DNA of 64,000 bases, taken from contig CAWFLK010000021.1 in the NCBI GenBank assembly GCA_963816635.1, positions 154,443 to 218,442 on the forward strand, in the 5' to 3' direction. A program made the position numbers and the translations under genes. Positions 5,072 through 48,074 of this stretch are shown piece by piece. This stretch comes from Ilumatobacteraceae bacterium (GTDB lineage Bacteria; Actinomycetota; Acidimicrobiia; Acidimicrobiales; Ilumatobacteraceae). The notes below the pieces were generated by a model. That model was not told where the DNA came from. It worked only from the letters and a program-made list of their open reading frames with translations, and did not search any database. How positions within the stretch are numbered: the stretch's first letter is position 1; the number at the start of each line of letters is the position of its first letter.

Positions 5072-5893
5072 GTGCTCGTCGCCACGGTCCTGGCCCTCAC
5101 CGCGGCCCTGCTGCACGCCGGCTGGAACCTGCGCGCCAAGCGCAGCCCCGATCGCCTCATCTCGCTGTGGGGTCAGTTCTTCGTCGCCGGTGTCGTCAGC
5201 GTCCCGGTGGTCGTCGCCACCCACGACCTGCCGGCGGCGGCGTGGGGCTTCGCCGCGCTGACCGCGGTGACGCACGTCCCCTACGCCGCGTTCCTCGCCG
5301 CCGCGTACGACCACGGCGACTTCTCGGTCGCCTATCCCATCGCCCGCGGCAGCGGCGCTGCGCTGGCCGGGCTGGGCGGGGTTCTGTTGCTCGGCGACGA
5401 CCTCGGGGTGCTCGGCGGGGTGGGCCTGCTGACGGTTGCCGCCGGAATGGTCGTGCTGGCGGCCGGCGCCGACCGCGTGCACGTGCTGCTCGCCCTCGGC
5501 GTCGGAGTCACCATCGGCGTGTACACCGTCAACGACAGCCACGCCTCACGCACGTTCGGCGTCACCTACGCCTTCGCCGCGTTCGCCCTCGCCGCGATCG
5601 CCGTGACGTCGTACGGCATCCTGCACCGCGGGGCACCGGCTCTGGTCGCCTCGATGCGCACCGACTGGCGCCGCCACGTGGTGAGCGGGGCGATGACCGC
5701 CGCCGCCTACGTGATGGTGCTCATCGCGGTGCGGCGAGCGCCGGTGGGGTACGTGGCATCGCTGCGCGAGTCGAGCGTGCTCGCCGCGGCGTTCCTCGGG
5801 ACCCGTTACCTGTCGGAAGGCCAGTCGCGCCGACGCACCGCGGCCGCCGTCGTGATCCTCACCGGCCTCGTCCTCCTCGTCGTGTCCGGATGA
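5072..5893 (+). CDS. EamA/DMT-family membrane transporter
   Basis: The 273-aa protein is polytopic and hydrophobic with two EamA-like halves, and has high GC3. Confidence 0.7.
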   Translation: MLVATVLALTAALLHAGWNLRAKRSPDRLISLWGQFFVAGVVSVPVVVATHDLPAAAWGFAALTAVTHVPYAAFLAAAYDHGDFSVAYPIARGSGAALAGLGGVLLLGDDLGVLGGVGLLTVAAGMVVLAAGADRVHVLLALGVGVTIGVYTVNDSHASRTFGVTYAFAAFALAAIAVTSYGILHRGAPALVASMRTDWRRHVVSGAMTAAAYVMVLIAVRRAPVGYVASLRESSVLAAAFLGTRYLSEGQSRRRTAAAVVILTGLVLLVVSG

Positions 5894-13152: not shown

Positions 13153-13187
13153 CCCCCGATCCTTCCACCCCCCGCCCCCAGGAAAAT

Positions 13188-13239
13188 GATTTCCACAAGC
13201 AGAATCGTGCAGATCTGCACGATTCCGCGCCCCAGAATC
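13188..13239 (+). repeat. copy A of the novel palindrome-containing element (family 1)
   Basis: GATTTCCACAAGCAg-AATCGTGCAGATCTGCACGATT-cCGCGCCCCAGAATC. The 22-bp core is a perfect palindrome. A C-rich tract (CCACCCCCCGCCCCC) lies just upstream. The copy sits 38 bp upstream of the secreted-protein gene. Confidence 0.7.
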
Positions 13240-14086: not shown

Positions 14087-14138
14087 GATTCTGGGGCGCG
14101 AAATCGTGCAGATCTGCACGATTTTGCTTGTGGAAATC
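14087..14138 (-). repeat. copy B of the family 1 element, inverted relative to copy A
   Basis: The reverse complement is GATTTCCACAAGCAa-AATCGTGCAGATCTGCACGATT-tCGCGCCCCAGAATC, which is 50 of 52 identical to copy A. It lies 4 bp after the exported-protein stop and 30 bp before the aldolase start. Confidence 0.7.
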
Positions 14139-14168
14139 ATCGACCGGGCGGGAAGTACCCTTGGACGC

Positions 14169-30649: not shown

Positions 30650-30714
30650 TCACCCAAAGCCTACCCATCCGGTCGGGAATCGCTCCCCGCCCCTCCACCG
30701 GCCCGGAGGACGAA

Positions 30715-30838
30715 GATTTCCACAAGCATTTTCGAGCGTTTCTGCACGATTTCGCGACCAAGAATCGCGAGCACCGCGCTTGCAAAGATTCTGGGGCGCG
30801 AAATCGTGCGTTCCCGCACGATTTTGCTTGTGGAAATC
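30715..30838. repeat. head-to-head pair of family 1 elements (C1 30715-30766 forward, C2 30787-30838 reverse) forming a 124-bp composite palindrome
   Basis: The reverse complement of C2 is GATTTCCACAAGCAaAATCGTGCGggaaCGCACGATTtCGCGCCCCAGAATC, with 10-bp hairpin arms. C1 has the same flanks but a degenerate hairpin. C-rich and G-rich tracts flank both sides. It lies between the moeZ-like start (30649) and the flotillin start (30963). Confidence 0.7.
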
Positions 30839-30885
30839 TTCGGTCCTGGCGGGCGGGAGGCGGCGGGGGCGGGGGTTTCTCTTGA

Positions 30886-33038: not shown

Positions 33039-33215
33039 GTCCGGCACTCATCGCGCGCCTCGCCGCGGCCGAACCGCCAGCGGCATGGCGGCACCCACCG
33101 GGGCGAGGGTCCTCATCGCACGAGGCGCGACGCATTAACGTCCGATGGTCGTGGCGCCGAACGCGCTCGGCGCCACCACGATCGCGCAAGGCTCACCGTC
33201 GACCCCCGCCGAGGA

Positions 33216-34043
33216 GTGCCCATGACGACCACAGATGAAACGCTCGATTCCGTCGCCGATGCCGGGCCCGGCTACGTGAAGATCGTTGCCGCCGAGCTGA
33301 TCGGCACGCTCATCCTGATGCTCGTCGGTCCGGGCAGCGCCATCCTCGCCCTCAATGCAGTCGGCACGTTCGGCGTCGCATTCGCGTTCGGTCTCGCCCT
33401 GCTGGCGATGGCCTACAGCATCGGCCACGTGTCCGGCTGCCACATCAACCCGGCCGTCACGCTGTCGTTCTGGTTGGTCCGAAAGGTGACGTTCGCACAG
33501 GCGATCGCCTACTGGGTCGCCCAGTGTGTCGGGGCGATCCTCGGCGCGTGGATCATCTACATCATCTCCGACGGCGGCGACCTCGACAACACGGGCGTGT
33601 TCGCGGCGAACGGATGGGGAAGCAAGCTCGGTAGCCCGTTCGGGATGTCCGCCGCCATCATCGTCGAGATCGTGTTCACCGCGCTGTTCGTCTTCGTGGT
33701 GTTGTCGACCACCACGAAGGGCTATCTGCTCGGCTTCGGCGGCCTCGCAGCTGGGCTGACGCTGGCGATGATCCACCTCGCGACCATCCCCGTCGACAAC
33801 ACCTCGGTGAACCCGGCCCGCAGCCTCGGCACCGCCGTGTTCGCCGGGACCGACGCGATGAGCCAGCTCTGGGTGTTCATCGTCTTCCCGCTCGTCGGCA
33901 CGCTCGTCGGCGTGCTGATCTGGCTCCTCGTCCACGAGGACGACTTGGAGTCGACCATCCTCGGCCAGCAGAGGGCGCTCGTGGCGGCGCGGAACCGAGC
34001 CGCCGCCATCGCACGCGGTCCGCAGCAGAAACCTTCTGCGTAG
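33216..34043 (+). CDS. aqpZ: aquaporin Z-like MIP-family water channel
   Basis: The two NPA boxes (SGCHINPAVT and NPARSLG) and six TM helices are present. Confidence 0.85.
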   Translation: MPMTTTDETLDSVADAGPGYVKIVAAELIGTLILMLVGPGSAILALNAVGTFGVAFAFGLALLAMAYSIGHVSGCHINPAVTLSFWLVRKVTFAQAIAYWVAQCVGAILGAWIIYIISDGGDLDNTGVFAANGWGSKLGSPFGMSAAIIVEIVFTALFVFVVLSTTTKGYLLGFGGLAAGLTLAMIHLATIPVDNTSVNPARSLGTAVFAGTDAMSQLWVFIVFPLVGTLVGVLIWLLVHEDDLESTILGQQRALVAARNRAAAIARGPQQKPSA

Positions 34044-34078
34044 CGCGCCGACGACCACGAACGCGCGTTGACCGCCGC

Positions 34079-34431
34079 TCAGCCGGGTGGGAACACCCAC
34101 CCGGCGGCGCCGCGACGCCACGGCGTGGCCGACACGACGGCAGCGAGCGGGATCGGGCCGTAGATGTGCGGGAACCGGTCGTCGGCCGGGTCGCCGGTGG
34201 GCGACTCCTCGACCACCGGCGCGCCGAGGGCGTCGGGGTCGATCGCCAACAGCACCACCTCGTCGACGTCGGCGTAGAAGCGGTTGGCCACGGCGGCCAC
34301 CTGGCAGCGCGTGCGAAGCGTGGATGAACCCCTCCTCGTCGAGGGATCGCCCGCGGGTGGAGATGCGATAGCTCCCCGCCGCCTCGGCCGCCCGCCAGTC
34401 GTCGGGGAGGGCGGCGTGGTAGATCGTCACG
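34079..34431 (-). CDS. DUF952-family protein, apparent frameshift near 34300
   Basis: The N-terminus TIYHAALPDDWRAAEAAGSYRISTRGRSLDEEGFIHASHA is in the cobB frame tail. The C-terminus VANRFYADVDEVVLLAIDPDALGAPVVEE ... RFPHIYGPIPLAAV is in ORF 34079..34300. The GTG start overlaps the cobB stop (GTGA). Confidence 0.55.
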
Positions 34432-35202
34432 GTTCGACCACCAACGCCGGGAGGACGTCGGAGATCGAGCCGCGCACCACCACGTCGGCGAGCTGGTCCA
34501 TCTCGGTCGGTGAGCCGTTGACGATCACGACCCGGGCACCGCTGCGCACGGCGATCGGTACGCAGTTCGCCACCGGGTAGACCGCGAGCGTCGAGCCCAC
34601 GGCGAGCAGCAGGTCGCACTCGGCGCTCACCCGCAGCGCCCGGTCGATCACCGCCGGCACGAGCGGCTGGCCGAACGAGATCGTGTCGCTCTTCAGGATC
34701 CCGTCGCCGCACGCGAGGCACCGCAGGTCGTCCTCGCCCACGGCGACCCGCTCCAGCGCCTCGGCCATCGGCCGGCGATCGCCGCACGTCCAGCACCGCG
34801 TCCACCACGCGGTGCCGTGCACCTCGACCACCAGGTCCGGGTCGCTGCCGGCGCGCTGGTGCAGCTCGTCGGTGTTCTGTGTCACGAGGGCGCGCAGCCG
34901 CCCGTCGCGTTCGAGCTCGACGATCACGCGGTGGCCGGCGTTCGGCTCGGCGCTCCACACCGGCGCTCGCACACGGGCCTGCCACGACGCTCGACGGACA
35001 TCGACGTCACCCAGGTAGTGCTGCAGCGAGGACGCCTTCTCGGCGCCGGGGTTGGTGGTCCACAGCCCGTTCGGCCCGCGGAAGTCGGGAATGCCCGAAT
35101 CGGTGCTGATGCCGGCACCGGTCACCACCACGATGCGTTCGGCCGCCTGCACCAGGGCACGCGCTTGGTCGACCGCCGTCGGTGGCTCGGGCGTGGCGAC
35201 CA
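34427..35202 (-). CDS. cobB: NAD-dependent protein deacylase, Sir2 family
   Basis: GAGISTDSGIPDFRG ... TQNTDELHQRAG ... zinc ribbon CWTCGD...CLACGDG ... GSTLAVYPVA. The start is MVATPEPP at about 35202. Confidence 0.85.
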
Positions 35203-35588
35203 TTCGCACCACTCTGGCAGACGCCCTTCCGTTCGGCGTCCGCGGCGACACCCCGGAGGAGCGATGGCGCCGACCGCTCCCTCCCCATGTTCGCCCCGCT
35301 GGAGGATCCCGCCGCCATGGCCCTCGCACTGTCCGCCCCCGACCCCGCCGACGAGCTCCGCGCCTCGTCGCCATCACACCGTGGATCGACCCGGTCGTCG
35401 ACACCCGCGGGTACGACCCGCGCTCGCGCTACGTCGAGCTGTTCTGGCTCGGCACCCTCGGCCGACGGGCACGTGGTTGCTGCGCCGGCTGGTGTCCGGC
35501 CTCGACGAGCACCCGGACGGCTACCGCGTCGACCTGGGAGCGACCGCCCGGGCGATGGGGGAGACGCCACGCCGGCACCGGCGGCGGG
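35194..35588 (+). repeat. tandem duplication copy 1 (degenerate, about 90% identity with indels)
   Basis: GCGACCATTCGCACCACTCTGGCAGACGCCCTTCCGTTCGGCGTCCGCGGCGACACCCCGGAGG... recurs at 35589. Copy 1 carries several indels and begins on the cobB start codon. Confidence 0.7.
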
Positions 35589-35985
35589 GGTGCGGCGACC
35601 ATTCGCACCACTCTGGCAGACGCCCTTCCGTTCGGCGTCCGCGGCGACACCCCGGAGGTGCGATGGCGCCGACCGCTCCCTCCCGCACATCGCACCGACG
35701 GAGGATCCCGCCACCATGACCATTGCCGAGTCCACGTCCGCCCCTGACCCCGCCGACGAGCTCCCGCGCCTCGTCGCCATCACACCGTGGATCGACCCGG
35801 TCGTCGACACCCGCGGTTACGACCCTCGCTCGCGCTACGTCGAGCTGTTCTGGCTCGGCACCCTCGGGCCGACGGCCACGTGGTTGCTGCGCCGGCTCGT
35901 CGCCGGCCTCGACGAGCACCCGGACGGCTACCGCCTCGATCTCGCGGCGACCGCCCGGGCGATGGGGCTGAGCTACCACACCGGC
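35589..35985 (+). repeat. tandem duplication copy 2 (contains the intact 5' end of the downstream gene)
   Basis: See copy 1. This copy provides the start codon and first roughly 90 codons of the 35716..36301 gene. Confidence 0.7.
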
Positions 35986-36301
35986 ACCGCCGGACCGTTC
36001 GGCCGAGCACTCGCCCGCTGCGTGATGTTCGGCATCGCCCACCAGCACAGCGACGGCTTCGCCGTGCGCCGACGCCTGCCCGAGGTGGCGCGCCGCCACC
36101 TGGCCCGGCTCCCACCGGAGGTGCAGGCGGCCCACGACGCGGTGGCTCGCCACCGTCCCGACGCTCGACGACCTGCAGCGGGGCCGGCTGCTCGCCGACG
36201 CCATGGTCGCCGCCGGCGACGACCGCGAACTGGTCGAGTCGCAGCTCGTGCGCCTCGGCGTCCCGGCGGCGACCGCCGCCGACCTCGCCCGCGCCAGCTG
36301 A
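35716..36301 (+). CDS. conserved hypothetical protein, apparent frameshift near 36140
   Basis: MTIAESTSAPDPADELPRLVAITPWIDPVVDTRGYDPRSRYVELFWLGTLGPTATWLLRRLV... The C-terminal LATVPTLDDLQRGRLLADAMVAAGDDRELVESQLVRLGVPAATAADLARAS is in the adjacent frame. The family is not recognised. Confidence 0.45.
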
Positions 36302-36333
36302 CCGACGATTCCGCGACGGCGAGCGGCGGCGCG

Positions 36334-37883
36334 TCAGGCAGGCTTGGCGTAGGTGGTCGCCAGGTCGATGAGCAGACGGGTGCCGAAGCCGGTGGCGCCC
36401 TTGGAGCGCCACGCGTCGTCGGTGTCGGACTTCATCGTGCTGGCCATGTCGATGTGCGCCCACGGCGTGTCGCCGACGAACTCGGAGAGGAAGACGGCGG
36501 CGGTGATCGCACCCCCGTAGGGCCCGCCGACGTTCTTGATGTCGGCGACGTCGGAATCGAGCAGCTTGCGGTAGCCCCGTTCGAGCGGCAGCTGCCACGT
36601 CTTCTCGTCGACGCGCCGTCGACGCGGCGACCACCCGGTCGACGAGCGCCTGGTCGTTGCCGAGCACGCCGGCGTAGCCGAGGCCGAGCGCCACCATGCA
36701 CGGCCCCGGTCAGCGTGGCGATGTCGACGATGGCGTCGGGCTGCTCCTCGACGGCGAGCGACAGCCCGTCGGCGAGCACGAGACGACCCTCGGCGTCGGT
36801 GTTGTGGATCTCGACGGTCTTGCCACCGTGGATGTGCAGCACGTCGCCGAGCTTCATCGCCGACCCCGAGGGCATGTTGTCGGTGCACATCAGGTAGCCG
36901 ATCACCTCGTTGGGGCATCCCAGCGCGGGCAGCGCCGAGAGCGCCGACAGGACCGCCGCGGCGCCGGACATGTCCATCTTCATCGAGGCATGGCTCGGAT
37001 CGCTCGGCTTCAGGCTGATCCCGCCCGAGTCGTACATGATCCCCTTGCCGACGAAGGCCAGCTTCGCAGCGCGACGACTTCTTGCGCTTGGGCCGGTACG
37101 TCAGCTTCACGAGCTGAGGCGCCTCCGTGCTCCCGGCGTTGACGCCGAGCAGACCACCGCACCCGAGCTCGCGCAGTCGCTCGGCACCGAACAGCTCGAT
37201 CTCCAGCCCGGCCTCGCTCGCCACGGCGGTCGCCAGCTCGGCGAGGCGGGTGGCCGTGAGGTGGCTGGGCGGTGAGTTGGCCAGGTCGCGTGCGAGCGCC
37301 GCGGCAGCCGCAGTGGTGGTGCCCCGCGTCGCGCCGGTGCTCACCGGCGCGGTCTGCGCCGACGGTGCGATCAGTACCAGCGACTGCAGGGCGGTGTCGC
37401 GCGCGTGTGCTTCAGCGTGCCGTAGCGGTAGCGGGCGAGGAGCACGCCCTCCACCACCGCTTGCGCCGACGCGGCGACCCCGGCGGCGCCGGCGTCGTGG
37501 AGGTTCGTCGCCAGCACCCCGTGGTTCGACGCCGCCCGGGCGAACGCCGCGGCCGCGTCGCGCAGGGCGGCCGGCGTCAGCGCGCCGTCGCCCACCCCGA
37601 CGGCGATGTGCACCGCGGTGCCCTTGGCCGGCACGACGACGGTCTGACCCACCTTGCCCTCGAAGCCGAGCGCGACGAGCGCGGCGCGGTCGGCGCCGAG
37701 CGAGCGGGCCACTGGCCCCTTCTCCCCCACCGGCACGCCGACGGCGGCCCCGGCCGGCGCCGTTCGCGCCACGTTGACCGACGGCCGCTCGCCGCTGCGT
37801 GACGGCGCAGGGTCGAAGGTCCGGCGGTCGTAGGCCAGCGCGTCCAGCGTCGCCGTGTGAGCGGGATCGTTCTTGAGCGTCAT
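36334..37883 (-). pseudogene. pepA: leucyl aminopeptidase (M17), at least four apparent frameshifts
   Basis: The M17 N-terminal domain (MTLKNDPAHTATLDALAYD...) and the catalytic core (KGIMYDSGGISLKP ... NTDAEGRLVLAD ... ATLTGA ... RRVDEKTWQLPLERGY ... GATGFGTRLL) are spread over ORFs 37371..37883, 36334..39465, 36432..37037 and 35780..36697 in three frames. Confidence 0.7.
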
Positions 37884-37968
37884 CGTCCGTCAGTCTGGCC
37901 GAGCGGGGGGCGGATGCGCACCCACCCCGGGCAGGCGTGGCGAGGCCACCGATAGCCTGGACGGCCGC

Positions 37969-40900
37969 ATGGAACAGCGCTCGTACCTCGATGCCGTCGC
38001 CGAACGGGTGGTCGTCTTCGACGGCGCGTTCGGCACCTACATACAGGATCTCGAGCTCGGCCCGGACGACTTCGGCGGTCCGGCGCTCGAGGGGTGCAAC
38101 GAGATGCTCTGTCTCACCCGCCCCGACGCCATCCGCGACATGCACCGGGCGTTCTTCGACGTCGGCGTCGACGTCGTCGAGACCGCCAGCTTCGGCAGCT
38201 TCTCGGTGGTCCTCAACGAGTACGGCATCGCCGACAAGGCGTACGAGCTCAACGTCGCCGCCGGTCGTCTCGCCCGCGAGGTGGCCGACGAGCTGATCGC
38301 CGCCGACGGGCGCGAGCGCTGGGTCGCCGGCTCGATCGGTCCCGGCACCAAGTTGCCGAGCCTCGGCCACATCGGCTTCGCCGCCCTGCGCGACGCCTAC
38401 GAGGAGCAGGCGGCCGGGCTGCTCGAGGGCGGCGTCGACCTGTTCCTGATCGAGACCTGCTACGACCTGCTGCAGGCGAAGGCGGCGATGATCGCCTGCC
38501 GGCGGGCGATGCGCGCCGCCGGGCGCAGCGTCCCGCTGCAGGTGCAGGTGTCGATGGAGACCACCGGGCGGATGTTGCTCGGCAGCGAGATCGGCGCCGC
38601 CCTGGTGTCGGTCGCGGCGATGGGCGCCGACGTCATCGGCGTCAACTGCTCCACCGGCCCGGCGGAGATGCAGGAGCACCTGCGCTACCTGTCGCAGCAC
38701 TCGCCGGTGCCGATCTCGGTGCTCCCCAACGCCGGCCTGCCGAGCGTGGTCGACGGCCGCACCCACTACGACCTGACGCCCGAGCAGCTCGCCGAGTACC
38801 ACCGACGCCACGTGGCCGAGCTCGGCGTGCGCGTCGTCGGCGGCTGTTGTGGCACGACGCCCGAGCATCTCCGTCAGGTGGTCGAGGCGGTCCGCAGCGT
38901 CGAGCCGGCACGACGCACCCCGGAGCTCGAAGCCAGCGTGACGTCGATCTACAGCCCGACGACGCTCGCCCAGGAGCTGAGTGTGCTGCTCATCGGCGAG
39001 CGCACCAACGCCAACGGCTCGAAGGCGTTTCGTGACGCGATGCTCGCCGGCGACTGGGACAGCTGCGTGAAGATGGCCAACGAGCAGATCAAGGAGGGCG
39101 CCCACGTCCTCGACGTGTGCGTCGACTACGTCGGCCGCGACGGCGCCCACGACATGGACGAGGTGGCCCGCCGATTCGCCACGCAGGCGAGCGTGCCGCT
39201 CGTGCTCGACTCCACCGAGCCACCGGTGCTCGAGGCCGCGCTGCAGCACGTGGGCGGGCGGGCGATCCTCAACTCGGCCAACCTGGAGGACGGCGAGCTC
39301 CCCGGCAGCCGCATGGACCGGGTGTTCTCCCTCGCCCGCGAATACGGCGCAGCGGTGATCTGCCTGCTGATCGACGAGCGCGGTCAGGCACGCGACGTCG
39401 AGTGGAAGATGGAGATCGCCCACCGCATCGCCCAGATCGCCACCGAGCGCTACGGGCTGTCGCACGGCGACCTGATCTTCGACGCCCTCACGTTCCCCTT
39501 GTCCACCGGCGACGACGACCTTCGGCGCGACGCCATGGAGACGATGGAGGCGATCCGACGGATCAAGGCGGAGATCCCGGCGCGTTCACGGTGCTCGGAC
39601 TGAGCAACGTCAGCTTCGGCCTGTCGCCGGCGGCACGCCACGCGCTGAACAGCGTGTTCCTGCACGAGTGCGCCGAGGCCGGGCTCGACTCGGCCATCGT
39701 CCACGCCGGCAAGATCGTGCCCCTGAACCGCATCCCCGACGAGCAGCGCGAAGTCTGCCTCGACCTGATCTACGACCGCCGCCGGGCCGCCTCCGCGGCC
39801 GACGGGACGACCGCCTACGACCCGCTGCAGAGCCTGCTCGAGGTGTTCGCCGACGTCAAGACGCTCGCCGCCGAGAAGCCCGACCGCAGCGGGCTGCCGG
39901 TGGAGGAGCGCCTGCGCCTGCGCATCATCGACGGCGACCGCGACGGCCTCGCCGCCGATCTCGACGAGGCGATGGCGGGTGGCATCGCCCCGCTGTCGAT
40001 CGTCAACGACGTGCTGCTCGAGGGGATGAAGGTGGTCGGCGAACTGTTCGGCTCCGGCCAGATGCAGCTGCCGTTCGTGCTGCAGTCAGCCGAGACGATG
40101 AAGGCCTCCGTCGCCTACCTCGAGCCGCACATGGATCGCATCGGCGGCTCGTCGGCGAAGGGCCGCCTCGTCATCGCCACCGTCAAGGGCGACGTGCACG
40201 ACATCGGCAAGAACCTCGTCGACATCATCGCCACGAACAACGGCTACGAGGTGCACAACCTCGGCATCAAGGTGCCGATCGGCGACATGCTCGCGAAGGT
40301 CAAGGAGGTCGACGCCGACGCCCTCGGGATGAGTGGCCTGCTCGTGAAGTCGACGCTGGTGATGCGCGAGAACCTCGAGGAGATCAACTCGCTCGGGCTG
40401 ACCGACCTGCCGATCCTGCTCGGCGGGGCCGCGCTCACCCGTCGCTACGTCGAGCGCGACCTGCGCGAGGTGTACGAGGGGCGGCTGTTCTACGGCCGCG
40501 ACACGTTCGAGGGTCTGTCGACGCTGGACTCGCTGATGGCGATGAAGCGCAGCGGCGAGTGGGATCCCGACTTCGGTCGGGTGCCGACGGGCCGGGTGCT
40601 GCCCGAGCGCCAGGTCGACGACGACGTCGCTGTCGCGGTCCCGGCGCGATCGCCGGAGGTGGCTACCGACAACCCGGTGTTCGTCCCGCCGTTCCTCGGC
40701 ACCCGGGTGGTCAAGGGGCTGTCGCTCGACGACATCGCCGAGTTCGTCAACGAGACGGCGCTGTACCGCAACCAGTGGCAGTTCCGACCCGAACCGGTGC
40801 CCGGGGCCGACCGGCCGGAGACCGACGACGAGTTCGAGTCGCGGGTGCGGTCGACGTTCCGCGAGCAGCTCGCCGCCGCCAAGGCGTCCGGCGTGCTCGT

Positions 40901-46897: not shown

Positions 46898-46900
46898 CCG

Positions 46901-46952
46901 GCGAAGTGTGAGCCACGCGTACGGATTTCCGTACGCGTGGCTCACACTTCGC
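46901..46952. repeat. copy 1 of the family 2 near-perfect palindrome (46-bp core 46904-46949)
   Basis: gcgAAGTGTGAGCCACGCGTACGGAtttCCGTACGCGTGGCTCACACTTcgc has a 22-bp stem and a 2-nt loop. It begins 4 bp after the nudix stop. Confidence 0.75.
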
Positions 46953-47040
46953 CTCGATCCTCGTCACGGGACTTCACCGGTCGCGCCCGGTGAGCCTGGC
47001 GGTGAGCCCACCGGTGAGGGCAGGAGTGCACCGTGCCCAC

Positions 47041-47990
47041 ATGGACGAGCGCGCCCGGCGGACGTTGATCAGACGAGCGATGGCCCAGCACGGTGTCATC
47101 ACCCGCCACGACGCCACCGCCCTCAACTTCGACCGGCGCCGCATCACGACAGCGCTGCGGGCCGGGTGGCTCGCCGAGCCTCTGCCGGGAGTGCTGGTGC
47201 TCACCGACACACCCGCGACCTGGCACCAACGCCTGGCCACCGTCGTCCACTCTGCGGGCGGGCGCGGCGTGGCCTCCCACCGATCGGCCGCGCGCCTGCA
47301 TGGCTTCGATGGTCTCGAGTCGGCGGGCGACGCGGTGATCGAGGTCAGCGTCACCCGGCGCTTCCGCCTCGACCCGGCCGCGGCCACCGTCACGCACCAC
47401 GTCACGCCGCTCGATGCCGTCGACGTCACCAGCGTGTCGGGCATCGCGTGCACGACCCGAAGCCGCACGTTGTGCGACCTGGGCGCGGTGTGCGATCGGC
47501 GGATGGTCGGTCGGGCGCTGACCTCCGCTCGACGCTCGGGCATCGACCTCCGGGCCGTCCGCGCCGCGGCCGAACGCCTCCACCGGCCAGGGCAATCGGG
47601 CACCGGCGTGATCATGCGTCTGCTCGACGGCATCCCGTGCGAGGGACGGTTGCCGGCGACCTGGTTCGAGGAGTTGCTCCACCTGTGCCTCACCGATCGC
47701 GGCTCCCGCCGGTTCTGCCCCAGTATCCGATCCGTGACGGGCAGGGACGGATCGTCGCCCGCACCGATCTTGGAATCCCATCGGTGAAGCTCGGCTCGAG
47801 GCACACAGCCGGCGCTTCCACTTCGGGCCGGACGCCGAGCGACTCGACGAGGACCGCGACCTCGCCGTCGCGAGGTGCGGGTGGGAGCTCATCTACCTCG
47901 GGTGGTACGCCACGCGGCGTCCCGCCGACGTCCTGCGGGTGGTGAAGGAGGTGACCGCGCTCGGACGCACGCGCTCGCCGCGCCCGGCGG
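47041..47990 (+). pseudogene. AbiEi-antitoxin-like N-terminal domain + DUF559 (Vsr-like endonuclease fold) protein, two apparent frameshifts
   Basis: The N-terminal MDERARRTLIRRAMAQHGVITRHDATALNFDRRRITTALRAGWL ... lies in frame A. ...LPPVLPQYPIRDGQGRIVARTDLGIP is in frame B. ...LEAHSRRFHFGPDAERLDEDRDLAVARCGWELIYLGWYATRRPADVLRVVKEV is in frame C. This three-part arrangement is the typical architecture of the multi-copy actinobacterial DUF559 proteins. Confidence 0.6.
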
Positions 47991-47992
47991 CG

Positions 47993-48038
47993 AACTGTGA
48001 GCCACGTGTACGGAAATCCGTACGCGTGGCTCACACTT
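47993..48038. repeat. copy 2 of the family 2 palindrome, inverted relative to copy 1
   Basis: AACTGTGAGCCACGTGTACGGaaaTCCGTACGCGTGGCTCACACTT. Its reverse complement differs from copy 1 at two positions, and the asymmetric centre (AAA versus TTT) shows the inversion. It ends 36 bp before the ybaK start. Confidence 0.75.
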
Positions 48039-48074
48039 GGCCAAATGCTCGGCGGGGGCGGCAAGGATGGCGCG

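What the first reader, a model, noticed from the sequence alone, without database searches (positions are those of the whole stretch)
35194..35985. Degenerate ~395-bp tandem duplication that starts on the cobB start codon and duplicates the 5' end of the downstream gene
Unit 1 (35194-35588) and unit 2 (35589-~35985) share about 90% identity. Both begin GCGACCATTCGCACCACTCTGGCAGACGCCCTTCCGTTCGGCGTCCGCGGCGACACCCCGGAGG. Unit 1 carries indels that destroy the duplicated N-terminal coding region (...PDPADELRASSPSH...). Unit 2 supplies the functional start (MTIAESTSAPDPADELPRLVAITPWIDPVVDTRGYDPRSRYVELFWLGTLGP...). The duplication places a second copy of the downstream gene's upstream region directly over the cobB 5' end (minus strand). 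This could alter expression of both genes, or it could be an assembly collapse or expansion artefact
Basis: seen in the sequence. Interest (0 to 1): 0.5.

Follow-up and report, generated by a model that had tools for sequence, protein, structure and literature searches.

The report
Hybrid 399-bp tandem duplication in MAG
A 399-base stretch covering the shared control region of two back-to-back genes and the first 92 codons of one of them is present twice in a row in this uncultured soil actinobacterium, whereas eleven close strains have it once; it is an ordinary, probably harmless strain-specific duplication or an assembly artefact, not a new kind of element.

Summary
The repeat is real in the sequence. 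Unit 1 is 35195-35593 and unit 2 is 35594-35993, period 399 bp, 89-92% identity, self-BLAST E 5e-150. It is the only large repeat in the window. It contains the first 3 codons of a Sir2/CobB-like gene (minus strand), the 113-bp divergent intergenic region, and codons 1-92 of a conserved hypothetical gene 'X'.

Eleven close strains (80-99% identical, short- and long-read assemblies) are all single-copy.

The two units are not simple decaying twins. All 33 substitutions partition around one point. Unit 1's 5' 225 bp and unit 2's 3' 168 bp equal the nearest strain (L087). The 'inner' 400 bp (35420-35825, spanning the junction) is 6.6-8.5% diverged, carries alleles of another clade, and holds a decayed X fragment (8 nonsynonymous : 2 synonymous singletons, deletions only).

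The native upstream regions of both genes are intact, so little functional effect is expected.

Most likely (~0.55) this is a genuine, not-recent lineage-specific tandem duplication, now sitting in a recombinant or strain-mixed consensus. A false 'heterotype' duplication from co-assembled strains (~0.33) cannot be excluded without reads, because the surrounding 2 kb is rich in indel errors.

An independent microhomology-mediated duplication of the same locus exists in a distant relative (L078).

Interest is low.

The parts
34427..35203 (-). Sir2-family NAD-dependent deacylase gene (CobB-like), 258 aa, intact. Its first 3 codons lie inside unit 1.
   Evidence: Pfam PF02146 E 1.6e-36. NCBIfam CobB models score 216 bits, below the equivalog cut-offs. 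Relatives have the same 258-aa gene call.
35195..35593 (+). Repeat unit 1 (399 bp): cobB codons 1-3 (antisense), intergenic copy 1, truncated X' fragment, and the 9-nt junction filler.
35204..35316 (.). Intergenic copy 1, the native divergent cobB/X spacer. It matches nearest strain L087 except for a 1-bp C-run deletion at 35283.
35317..35584 (+). X' : a truncated copy (codons 1-92) of gene X. It keeps an SD and an ATG. Deletions are -1 at 35356, -1 at 35459, -2 at 35560 and -6 at 35584. The 3' 174 bp are 8.5% diverged.
   Evidence: Singletons are 8 nonsynonymous: 2 synonymous, against 2: 9 in functional X/pepA (Fisher P 0.009).
35585..35593 (.). Novel junction: 9 nt (CGGGGGTGC) that align convincingly with neither the X continuation nor cobB codons 4-6.
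   Evidence: A pattern spanning the junction was found in neither public collection.
35594..35993 (+). Repeat unit 2 (400 bp): a 9-nt remnant of the cobB start, intergenic copy 2, and codons 1-92 of the full-length X gene.
35420..35825 (.). The 'inner' divergent segment, one circularly permuted unit spanning the junction. It is 6.6-8.5% from every sampled strain, has 9 alleles shared with clade A (L084/L002/L091), and is flanked by sequence 0-1% from L087.
35685..35745 (+). Hyper-divergent patch in unit 2: the last 31 bp of the X leader plus codons 1-10. It has 11 window-specific substitutions (plus 4 alleles also seen in other strains) and an in-frame 6-bp insertion (MTIAESTS instead of MALALS). 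The SD GGAGGA is retained.
   Evidence: No other copy exists in the window, and the nearest matches are clade A. It forms a stronger leader hairpin only in this copy.
35716..36301 (+). Gene X, a conserved hypothetical protein of Acidimicrobiia (194 aa after removing one extra base near 36140). The predicted fold is a DnaD/DnaB(primosomal)-like winged helix.
36334..37883 (-). Leucyl aminopeptidase (M17) gene, convergent with X. In this sequence it is broken by +1/+2 insertions at 36613, 36702, 37071 and 37398. It is context for assembly quality, not part of the repeat.

Best explanation
This is a genuine, lineage-specific head-to-tail duplication of 399 bp in an uncultured Ilumatobacteraceae bacterium. 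The unit runs from codon 3 of the Sir2/CobB-like gene, through the 113-bp divergent intergenic region, to codon 92 of the DnaD/DnaB-like gene X.

It was probably made by one illegitimate joining event: the unit end was joined to the unit start with 9 nt of filler, which resembles end-joining more than slippage. The extra partial copy of X (X') has since decayed neutrally.

The duplication is not recent. The inner 400 bp that contains the junction belongs to a lineage 6.6-8.5% diverged from all sampled strains. The outer halves and flanks match the nearest strain. So the present sequence is a mosaic, produced either by homologous recombination with single-copy relatives or by consensus-building over co-occurring strains.

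Functionally it is close to neutral. cobB keeps its native upstream region. X keeps a complete copy of the spacer, an SD and a start codon. The only plausible effects are a second upstream X promoter reading through X' and an altered leader and N-terminus of X.

Shown: the repeat, the single-copy state of relatives, the reciprocal mosaic, and the decay pattern of X'.
Inferred: the formation mechanism, the age, the neutrality, and that reads support the junction.
For: 1. The repeat has E 5e-150 and is unique in the window.
2. Eleven close strains are single copy: L001, L002/L004, L003, L084-L091.
3. In the segment-by-segment comparison with L087, substitutions are 0.2-1.0% up to 35419, 8.5% in 35420-35593, 6.6% in 35594-35825, 0.0% in 35826-35993, 3.1-3.6% up to 37100, then 1.4% falling to 0.3%. 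This is one contiguous foreign-looking tract that contains the junction.
4. X' 3' window-specific substitutions are 8 nonsynonymous: 2 synonymous. Those in functional X and pepA are 2: 9 (Fisher P 0.009). Substitutions in this assembly are therefore reliable, and X' evolved without constraint.
5. Relative to L087 and the strain consensus, all 5 indel events in unit 1 are deletions. Outside the units, 9 of 10 indel events are insertions (hypergeometric 6/3003 = 0.002). This fits pseudogene decay rather than this assembly's usual error type.
6. The divergent N-terminal patch of X stays in frame and keeps its SD.
7. An independent duplication of the same locus exists in a short-read contig of a distant relative (L078). 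Its junction lies at a 10-11-bp microhomology that pre-exists at both sites in single-copy relatives. Such events therefore do occur naturally at this locus.
Against: 1. No reads are available. The junction pattern occurs in neither of the two public contig collections scanned with it, which do not hold the window's own contig either. No independent assembly of this strain was found.
2. The window is an error-prone assembly. Eleven of 14 indels relative to L087 cluster in 35283-37398 (Poisson P 0.004). This points to locally weak read support exactly where the duplication lies.
3. The two copies carry alleles of different lineages, and the reciprocal mosaic is also a stable outcome of polishing a false duplication with reads from two strains.
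4. The 18% divergence of the 61-bp patch in the functional copy exceeds the apparent neutral rate in X' and needs an extra event (an import tract).
5. None of the 11 sampled strains carries the supposedly old duplication.
Confidence: 0.55

Rival explanations
1. False 'heterotype' duplication. The source genome is single-copy. The assembler strung together the alleles of two co-occurring strains of the same species at a locally divergent, low-coverage spot. Polishing then sorted reads of the two strains between the two copies, giving the reciprocal mosaic.
For: The inner and outer parts carry alleles of different clades. Many strains of this species co-occur in the same sample series. Indel errors cluster around the repeat. 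The last ~40 bp of unit 1 plus the 9-nt filler look like unsupported consensus. This class of artefact is well documented for assemblies of heterozygous genomes (PMC9516828).
Against: Under this model unit 1's 3' part should be the functional X allele of the second strain. Instead its window-specific changes are 8 nonsynonymous: 2 synonymous, hit near-invariant residues (A54G) and come with deletions only. Substitution calls elsewhere in the same tract are selection-filtered, 9 synonymous: 2 nonsynonymous. There are no Ns or contig joins between the copies. The 87 bp right after the junction are clean. From my own knowledge, long reads normally span a 0.4-kb repeat, and a read chimera joining two molecules of the same 1-kb locus in direct register would be very unlikely in a soil metagenome.
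Confidence: 0.33
2. Recent in-situ tandem duplication followed by simple decay of the redundant copy.
For: The repeat is head-to-tail, unit 1 carries frameshifts, and unit 2 feeds the full gene.
Against: All 18 substitutions in the 5' 225 bp are changes in unit 2, the functional copy, while unit 1 there matches L087 at every one of those positions. All 15 substitutions in the 3' part are changes in unit 1. A random assignment would give this with probability of order 1e-8, by my own count. Nine odd alleles match another clade. Uniform decay of X' predicts about 5.6 changes in its first 103 bp, where 0-1 are seen (my calculation).
Confidence: 0.04
3. Selected regulatory or coding innovation. 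Duplication of the divergent promoter region and the N-terminal, oligomerisation-type part of the DnaD/DnaB-like protein X is recurrently favoured. The benefit would be raised or uncoupled X expression (two tandem promoters) or production of an N-terminal peptide.
For: Duplications touching the X 5' region were seen in 2 other lineages among about 90 loci retrieved by X homology alone: L078 (tandem) and L008 (140-bp upstream repeat around a DedA gene). These two are the only repeats of 140 bp or more at 85% identity or more found in about 0.9 Mb of flanking sequence. SD and ATG are retained in unit 1. No terminator lies between the units.
Against: X' is frameshifted and truncated inside the winged-helix domain. 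Its changes look neutral. The duplications have different boundaries and are each confined to one sampled lineage. No promoter could be identified. The numbers are small.
Confidence: 0.08

Closest known systems
Short-junction or microhomology-mediated tandem duplications in bacterial chromosomes (RecA-independent illegitimate recombination or end joining)
   Same: Two head-to-tail copies with nothing between them. The ancestral state is single-copy in relatives. One novel junction joins the unit end to the unit start. The partial gene copy decays. The L078 example has a textbook 10-11-bp microhomology junction.
   Different: The window's junction has 9 nt of filler and no clear microhomology. 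The two copies are not each other's closest relatives but form a reciprocal mosaic of two lineages.
Heterotype false duplications in genome assemblies (Ko et al. 2022, Genome Biol 23:205, PMC9516828)
   Same: Two adjacent copies carry different haplotype or strain alleles in a locally divergent region of an assembly made from a mixed population. Local consensus quality is low.
   Different: There is no gap between the copies. One copy-half shows neutral decay rather than a second functional allele. Read depth and k-mer criteria could not be tested.
Campbell-type (single-crossover) integration or homology-facilitated illegitimate recombination of incoming DNA
   Same: It would give hybrid direct repeats with a shared crossover point: recipient 5' plus donor 3', then donor 5' plus recipient 3'. 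That is the pattern seen.
   Different: No vector or foreign DNA lies between the repeats, only 9 nt. A 0.4-kb circle as donor is implausible. The crossover interval is only defined to within about 10-80 bp, depending on which sites are counted as informative.
DnaD / primosomal DnaB (Bacillus type) replication-initiation proteins (for gene X only)
   Different: There is no sequence-family match in Pfam, NCBIfam or PDB sequences. Function is untested. It is not needed to explain the repeat.

Membership tests
Tandem segmental duplication (illegitimate recombination) | Two direct copies, head to tail, with no intervening sequence | tested here: met
   Period 399. Only 9 unaligned nt lie between the homology blocks.
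Tandem segmental duplication (illegitimate recombination) | Single-copy ancestral arrangement in close relatives | tested here: met
   11 strains at 80-99% identity are all single copy.
Tandem segmental duplication (illegitimate recombination) | Junction at a microhomology shared by the two parental sites | tested here: inconclusive
   The window has a 9-nt filler and at best GGC/CGG matches. By contrast, the L078 junction lies in an 11-bp TCGAGCTCGAC present at both parental sites of L092/L093.
Tandem segmental duplication (illegitimate recombination) | The copies are each other's closest relatives (in-situ origin, no later exchange) | tested here: not met
   Unit 1's 5' part and unit 2's 3' part are 0-0.4% from L087 but 7-9% from the other unit. 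The inner segment shares 9 alleles with clade A.
Tandem segmental duplication (illegitimate recombination) | Sequencing reads or PCR products spanning both copies | not testable with these tools
   No reads are available. The junction pattern is absent from the two public contig collections scanned.
Heterotype false duplication (assembly artefact) | The two copies carry alleles of different haplotypes or strains | tested here: met
   The outer parts are L087-like. The inner segment has clade-A alleles plus singletons.
Heterotype false duplication (assembly artefact) | Each copy is a bona fide allele, so differences are filtered by selection | tested here: not met
   The X' 3' part has 8 nonsynonymous: 2 synonymous singletons and deletions only, against 2: 9 in functional genes. 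The N-terminal patch of unit 2 is in frame.
Heterotype false duplication (assembly artefact) | Gap or contig join between the copies | tested here: not met
   There are no Ns and the sequence is continuous.
Heterotype false duplication (assembly artefact) | Reduced read depth and single-copy k-mers over the copies | not testable with these tools
   This needs raw reads. The only indirect sign is an indel-error cluster, 11 of 14 in 35283-37398.
Campbell-type integration of circular homologous DNA | Hybrid repeats with one shared crossover point | tested here: inconclusive
   The switch lies between alignment columns 265 and 275 in both units if all sites are counted. It lies within about 70-80 bp if common polymorphisms are discounted.
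Campbell-type integration of circular homologous DNA | Donor (vector) DNA between the repeats | tested here: not met
   Only 9 nt lie between the units.
Sir2 / CobB protein deacylases (left-hand gene) | Match to the Sir2 catalytic domain model above threshold | tested here: met
   PF02146 126 bits against a cut-off of 24. The NCBIfam CobB equivalog scores 216 bits against a cut-off of 320, so the gene is called Sir2-family or CobB-like only.
DnaD/DnaB(primosomal) family (gene X) | Sequence match to family models | tested here: not met
   No Pfam or NCBIfam hit even at E 10, and no PDB sequence hit.
DnaD/DnaB(primosomal) family (gene X) | Fold similarity to solved members | tested here: met
   [not shown]

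The most novel reading that the evidence does not exclude
The divergent cobB-X control region plus the 5' end of X (a DnaD/DnaB-like winged-helix gene without a Pfam family) is a recurrent duplication hotspot in Acidimicrobiia. Under this reading the duplications persist because they change expression of X or yield an N-terminal fragment with a function of its own. The window, L078 and L008 would then be three independent instances of one selectable regulatory variant.
Probability: 0.07. Interest if true: 0.45.

Novelty: new member of a known kind. Interest (0 to 1): 0.17.

Why it matters
Mostly as a caution. In error-prone metagenome-assembled genomes a diverged tandem repeat can look like an evolving gene duplication, when it is a mosaic of strain alleles whose reality needs read-level proof.

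If genuine, it is a small, datable example of how illegitimate joining and later homologous exchange shape a promoter region in an uncultured, highly recombining soil actinobacterium.

The side observations would be worth a separate look: a second, microhomology-mediated duplication at the same locus in a distant relative, and gene X having a DnaD/DnaB-like fold in a phylum where, to my knowledge, such proteins are not described. They do not make this repeat itself remarkable.

Tried and rejected
1. Flank lineage switch as proof of a chimeric join. The left flank groups with L085/L086 and the right flank with L002/L084. I rejected this as evidence because the independent short-read contig L001 shows the same switch (82 of 96 informative sites agree with the window). 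It is natural haplotype structure.
2. Inner-segment divergence as raw-read noise. I rejected this because substitutions greatly outnumber indels. Nine odd alleles match existing polymorphisms. Substitution singletons elsewhere are 9 synonymous: 2 nonsynonymous.
3. A conserved RNA structure or Rfam family in the duplicated leader. The only hit is a sub-threshold Ms_AS-4 match (29 bits against 50). Leader folds of six alleles share only a small hairpin. Only unit 2 folds unusually well (z -2.7).
4. Promoter and terminator scans found nothing.
5. Finding the window's own contig or the same strain elsewhere by exact protein look-up or by the junction pattern found nothing.
6. Homology-facilitated illegitimate recombination of a single-copy donor. 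I rejected this because it predicts that unit 1 is entirely recipient-type, which it is not.
7. A paralogous source for the divergent patch within the window was not found.
8. The dN/dS argument that the L078 copies must be two functional alleles (5 of 5 differences synonymous). This is only weakly significant once selection on the functional copy is allowed for (my estimate, P about 0.02), so I did not rely on it.

Full report
**Observation.**
- GGCGACCAT starts at 35195 and again at 35594, so the period is 399.
- Homology runs to 35584 in unit 1 and to 35993 in unit 2.
- Nine bases (35585-35593, CGGGGGTGC) at the junction align with neither parental side.
- Self-blastn gives 35180-35584 against 35579-35993 at 88.9% including gaps, E 5e-150. 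No other repeat longer than 90 bp exists in the 64 kb. Ignoring gaps, identity is 91.6%.
- TRF missed the repeat.

**Gene context.**
- The sequence has about 72% G+C and comes from an Ilumatobacteraceae (Acidimicrobiia) genome. The closest public record is MAG MFD04944.bin.2.195.
- On the minus strand, 34427-35203 encodes an intact 258-aa Sir2-family deacylase. Pfam PF02146 gives E 1.6e-36. The NCBIfam CobB models match but score below their equivalog cut-offs.
- On the plus strand, 35716-36301 encodes 'X', a conserved hypothetical protein with more than 1300 homologues and no Pfam, NCBIfam or PDB sequence match.
- In this sequence X has one extra base near 36140.
- The M17 aminopeptidase gene downstream is broken by four insertions, and the DUF952 gene upstream by one.
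- The unit therefore contains cobB codons 1-3, the whole 113-bp divergent spacer and X codons 1-92.

**Relatives are single copy.** I recovered eleven close strains.
- L001, L003 and L089 are short-read metagenome contigs (JGI for L001 and L003).
- L002/L004, L084-L088, L090 and L091 have Flye-style contig names from one ENA series.
- Identity to the window is 80-99%.
- In every one the cobB start is followed by one spacer and one X gene.
- cobB and X are divergent neighbours in 21 of 82 more distant loci, and the aminopeptidase follows X in 46 of 82.
- The native arrangement already has the X upstream region abutting the cobB start, so the duplication does not place anything new over cobB.

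**The two units are a reciprocal mosaic.**
- In a 13-sequence alignment all 33 substitution differences between the units partition around one point, alignment columns 265-275. That corresponds to 35411-35420 in unit 1 and 35817-35826 in unit 2.
- Left of that point, unit 1 equals the nearest strain L087 and unit 2 is the odd one in all 18 columns. Unit 2 also has an in-frame 6-bp insertion there.
- Right of that point, unit 2 equals L087 (0 of 168 positions differ) and unit 1 is odd in all 15 columns. Unit 1 also has deletions of 1, 2 and 6 bp there.
- The odd 'inner' segment (35420-35825) is exactly one unit long and contains the junction. It is 6.6-8.5% from every sampled strain and shares 9 alleles with clade A (L084/L002/L091). 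The rest of its differences are singletons.
- Relative to L087 the window reads as follows:

| Segment | Substitutions vs L087 |
|---|---|
| up to 35419 | 0.2-1.0% |
| 35420-35593 | 8.5% |
| 35594-35825 | 6.6% |
| 35826-35993 | 0.0% |
| 35994-37100 | 3.1-3.6% |
| 37101-38000 | 1.4% |
| 38001-39300 | 0.3% |

- Within 35994-37100, the stretch 36341-36700 is identical to clade-A strain L084.
- Simple in-situ duplication followed by decay of unit 1 is therefore excluded.

**A test that failed to show chimerism.**
- The left flank groups with L085/L086 and the right flank with L002/L084.
- This looked like a join between strains. However, the independent short-read contig L001 shows the same switch (82 of 96 informative sites agree).
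- It is a natural haplotype structure of a recombining population, not evidence against the window.

**Real or artefact?**

*For a real, not-recent duplication:*
- Window-specific substitutions in functional X and pepA are 9 synonymous: 2 nonsynonymous, so substitution calls are reliable.
- In the 3' part of X' they are 2: 8 (Fisher P 0.009) and include a near-invariant residue (A54G).
- Relative to L087 and the strain consensus, all five indel events in unit 1 are deletions. Nine of ten indel events outside the units are insertions (hypergeometric 0.002 by my count). This is what pseudogene decay predicts.
- The diverged N-terminal patch of the functional copy stays in frame and keeps its Shine-Dalgarno sequence.
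- Neutral divergence of X' is about 6%. That exceeds the window lineage's own synonymous divergence, which I estimate at about 2%. The junction-bearing segment therefore belongs to an older or different lineage and reached its present context by recombination or by consensus mixing.

*For an artefact:*
- The assembly is error-prone. Eleven of 14 indels relative to the clean contig L087 cluster in 35283-37398 (Poisson P 0.004). Local read support is therefore weak.
- The copies carry different strains' alleles.
- I reasoned that the observed mosaic is also a stable end state when reads of two single-copy strains are used to polish a falsely duplicated draft.
- Such 'heterotype false duplications' are a documented assembly error class (PMC9516828).
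- The junction pattern occurs in neither public contig collection scanned with it. Those collections do not hold the window's own contig either, and no second assembly of this strain was found.

*Weights:* real about 0.55, artefact about 0.33.

**Function.**
- No sigma-70-like promoter or intrinsic terminator was detected.
- No Rfam family reached threshold.
- The leaders of six alleles share only a small hairpin.
- cobB retains about 225 bp of upstream sequence that is native apart from two 1-bp homopolymer deletions and one substitution relative to L087.
- X retains a full spacer copy.
- The expected phenotype is therefore nil or small. At most there is read-through from a second upstream X promoter, plus a changed X leader and N-terminus.

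**Related observations.**
- L078 is a short-read contig of a distant Acidimicrobiales lineage (X 49% identical). It has an independent 551-bp tandem duplication of cobB codons 1 to about 108, the spacer and X codons 1-66.
- Its junction lies in TCGAGCTCGAC, which is present at both parental sites in single-copy relatives L092 and L093. That is a textbook microhomology-mediated duplication.
- L008 has a 140-bp duplication of the X-upstream region around a DedA gene.
- These two are the only repeats of at least 140 bp and at least 85% identity in about 0.9 Mb of flanks surveyed. That hints at a hotspot, but the numbers are small.

**Verdict.** The feature is an ordinary, strain-specific tandem duplication or a strain-mixture artefact, with an unusual but explicable mosaic structure. 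Interest is low.

Noticed in passing
L078:1-1100 (DASTFY010000218.1): Independent 551-bp tandem duplication of the same locus in a distant relative: cobB 5' ~108 codons, the spacer and X codons 1-66. Copies 1-146 and 552-697 are 97% identical, and all 5 differences are synonymous. The junction lies at a 10-11-bp microhomology TCGAGCTCGAC that is present at both parental sites in single-copy relatives L092 and L093.
   Followed up: yes
L008:4754-4891 and 5735-5874: A 140-bp segment is duplicated at 89% identity, 981 bp apart, with a DedA-family gene in between. The segment is the upstream region of X plus the first 8 codons of the leftward methyltransferase gene. The layout resembles a single-crossover insertion.
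   Followed up: partly
[not shown]
   Followed up: partly
window 34306, 36140, 36613, 36702, 37071, 37398: Single- or two-base insertions, mostly G/C in CG-rich context, break the DUF952, X and M17 aminopeptidase genes. All three are intact in strain L087. Eleven of 14 indels relative to L087 cluster in 35283-37398. This looks like local low-coverage long-read consensus error rather than real pseudogenes.
   Followed up: partly
window 33039-34072: An aquaporin (MIP) gene cassette with lower G+C (about 65% against 72-76%) is present in the window, L086 and L087. It is absent or replaced by other short ORFs in L002, L084, L085 and L090. This is a variable slot 1.1 kb from the duplication.
   Followed up: partly
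window 36138-36143 (X codon ~142): The residue between AAHD and WLATV is hypervariable among strains at least 90% identical (V, G, E, A, H, Q). The window's frameshift falls exactly in this codon.
   Followed up: no
window 13186-13239, 14087-14140, 30708-30875: Copies of a palindromic element (core AATCGTGCAGATCTGCACGATT), two of them in inverted orientation about 0.9 kb apart. They look like REP-type elements or operator-like sites.
   Followed up: no
window 46900-46953 and 47989-48042: A 42-bp near-perfect palindrome (GTGTGAGCCACGCGTACGGA...TCCGTACGCGTGGCTCACAC) occurs twice, flanking about 1 kb. That stretch includes an ORF with a weak AbiEi_4 antitoxin-type N-terminal match (E 9e-5, below the Pfam cut-off).
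   Followed up: no
window 35871-35954 (+): Sub-threshold Rfam match to the actinobacterial antisense sRNA family Ms_AS-4 (29 bits, gathering score 50, E 0.035) inside the conserved core of X. It is probably chance or coding-sequence conservation.
   Followed up: no
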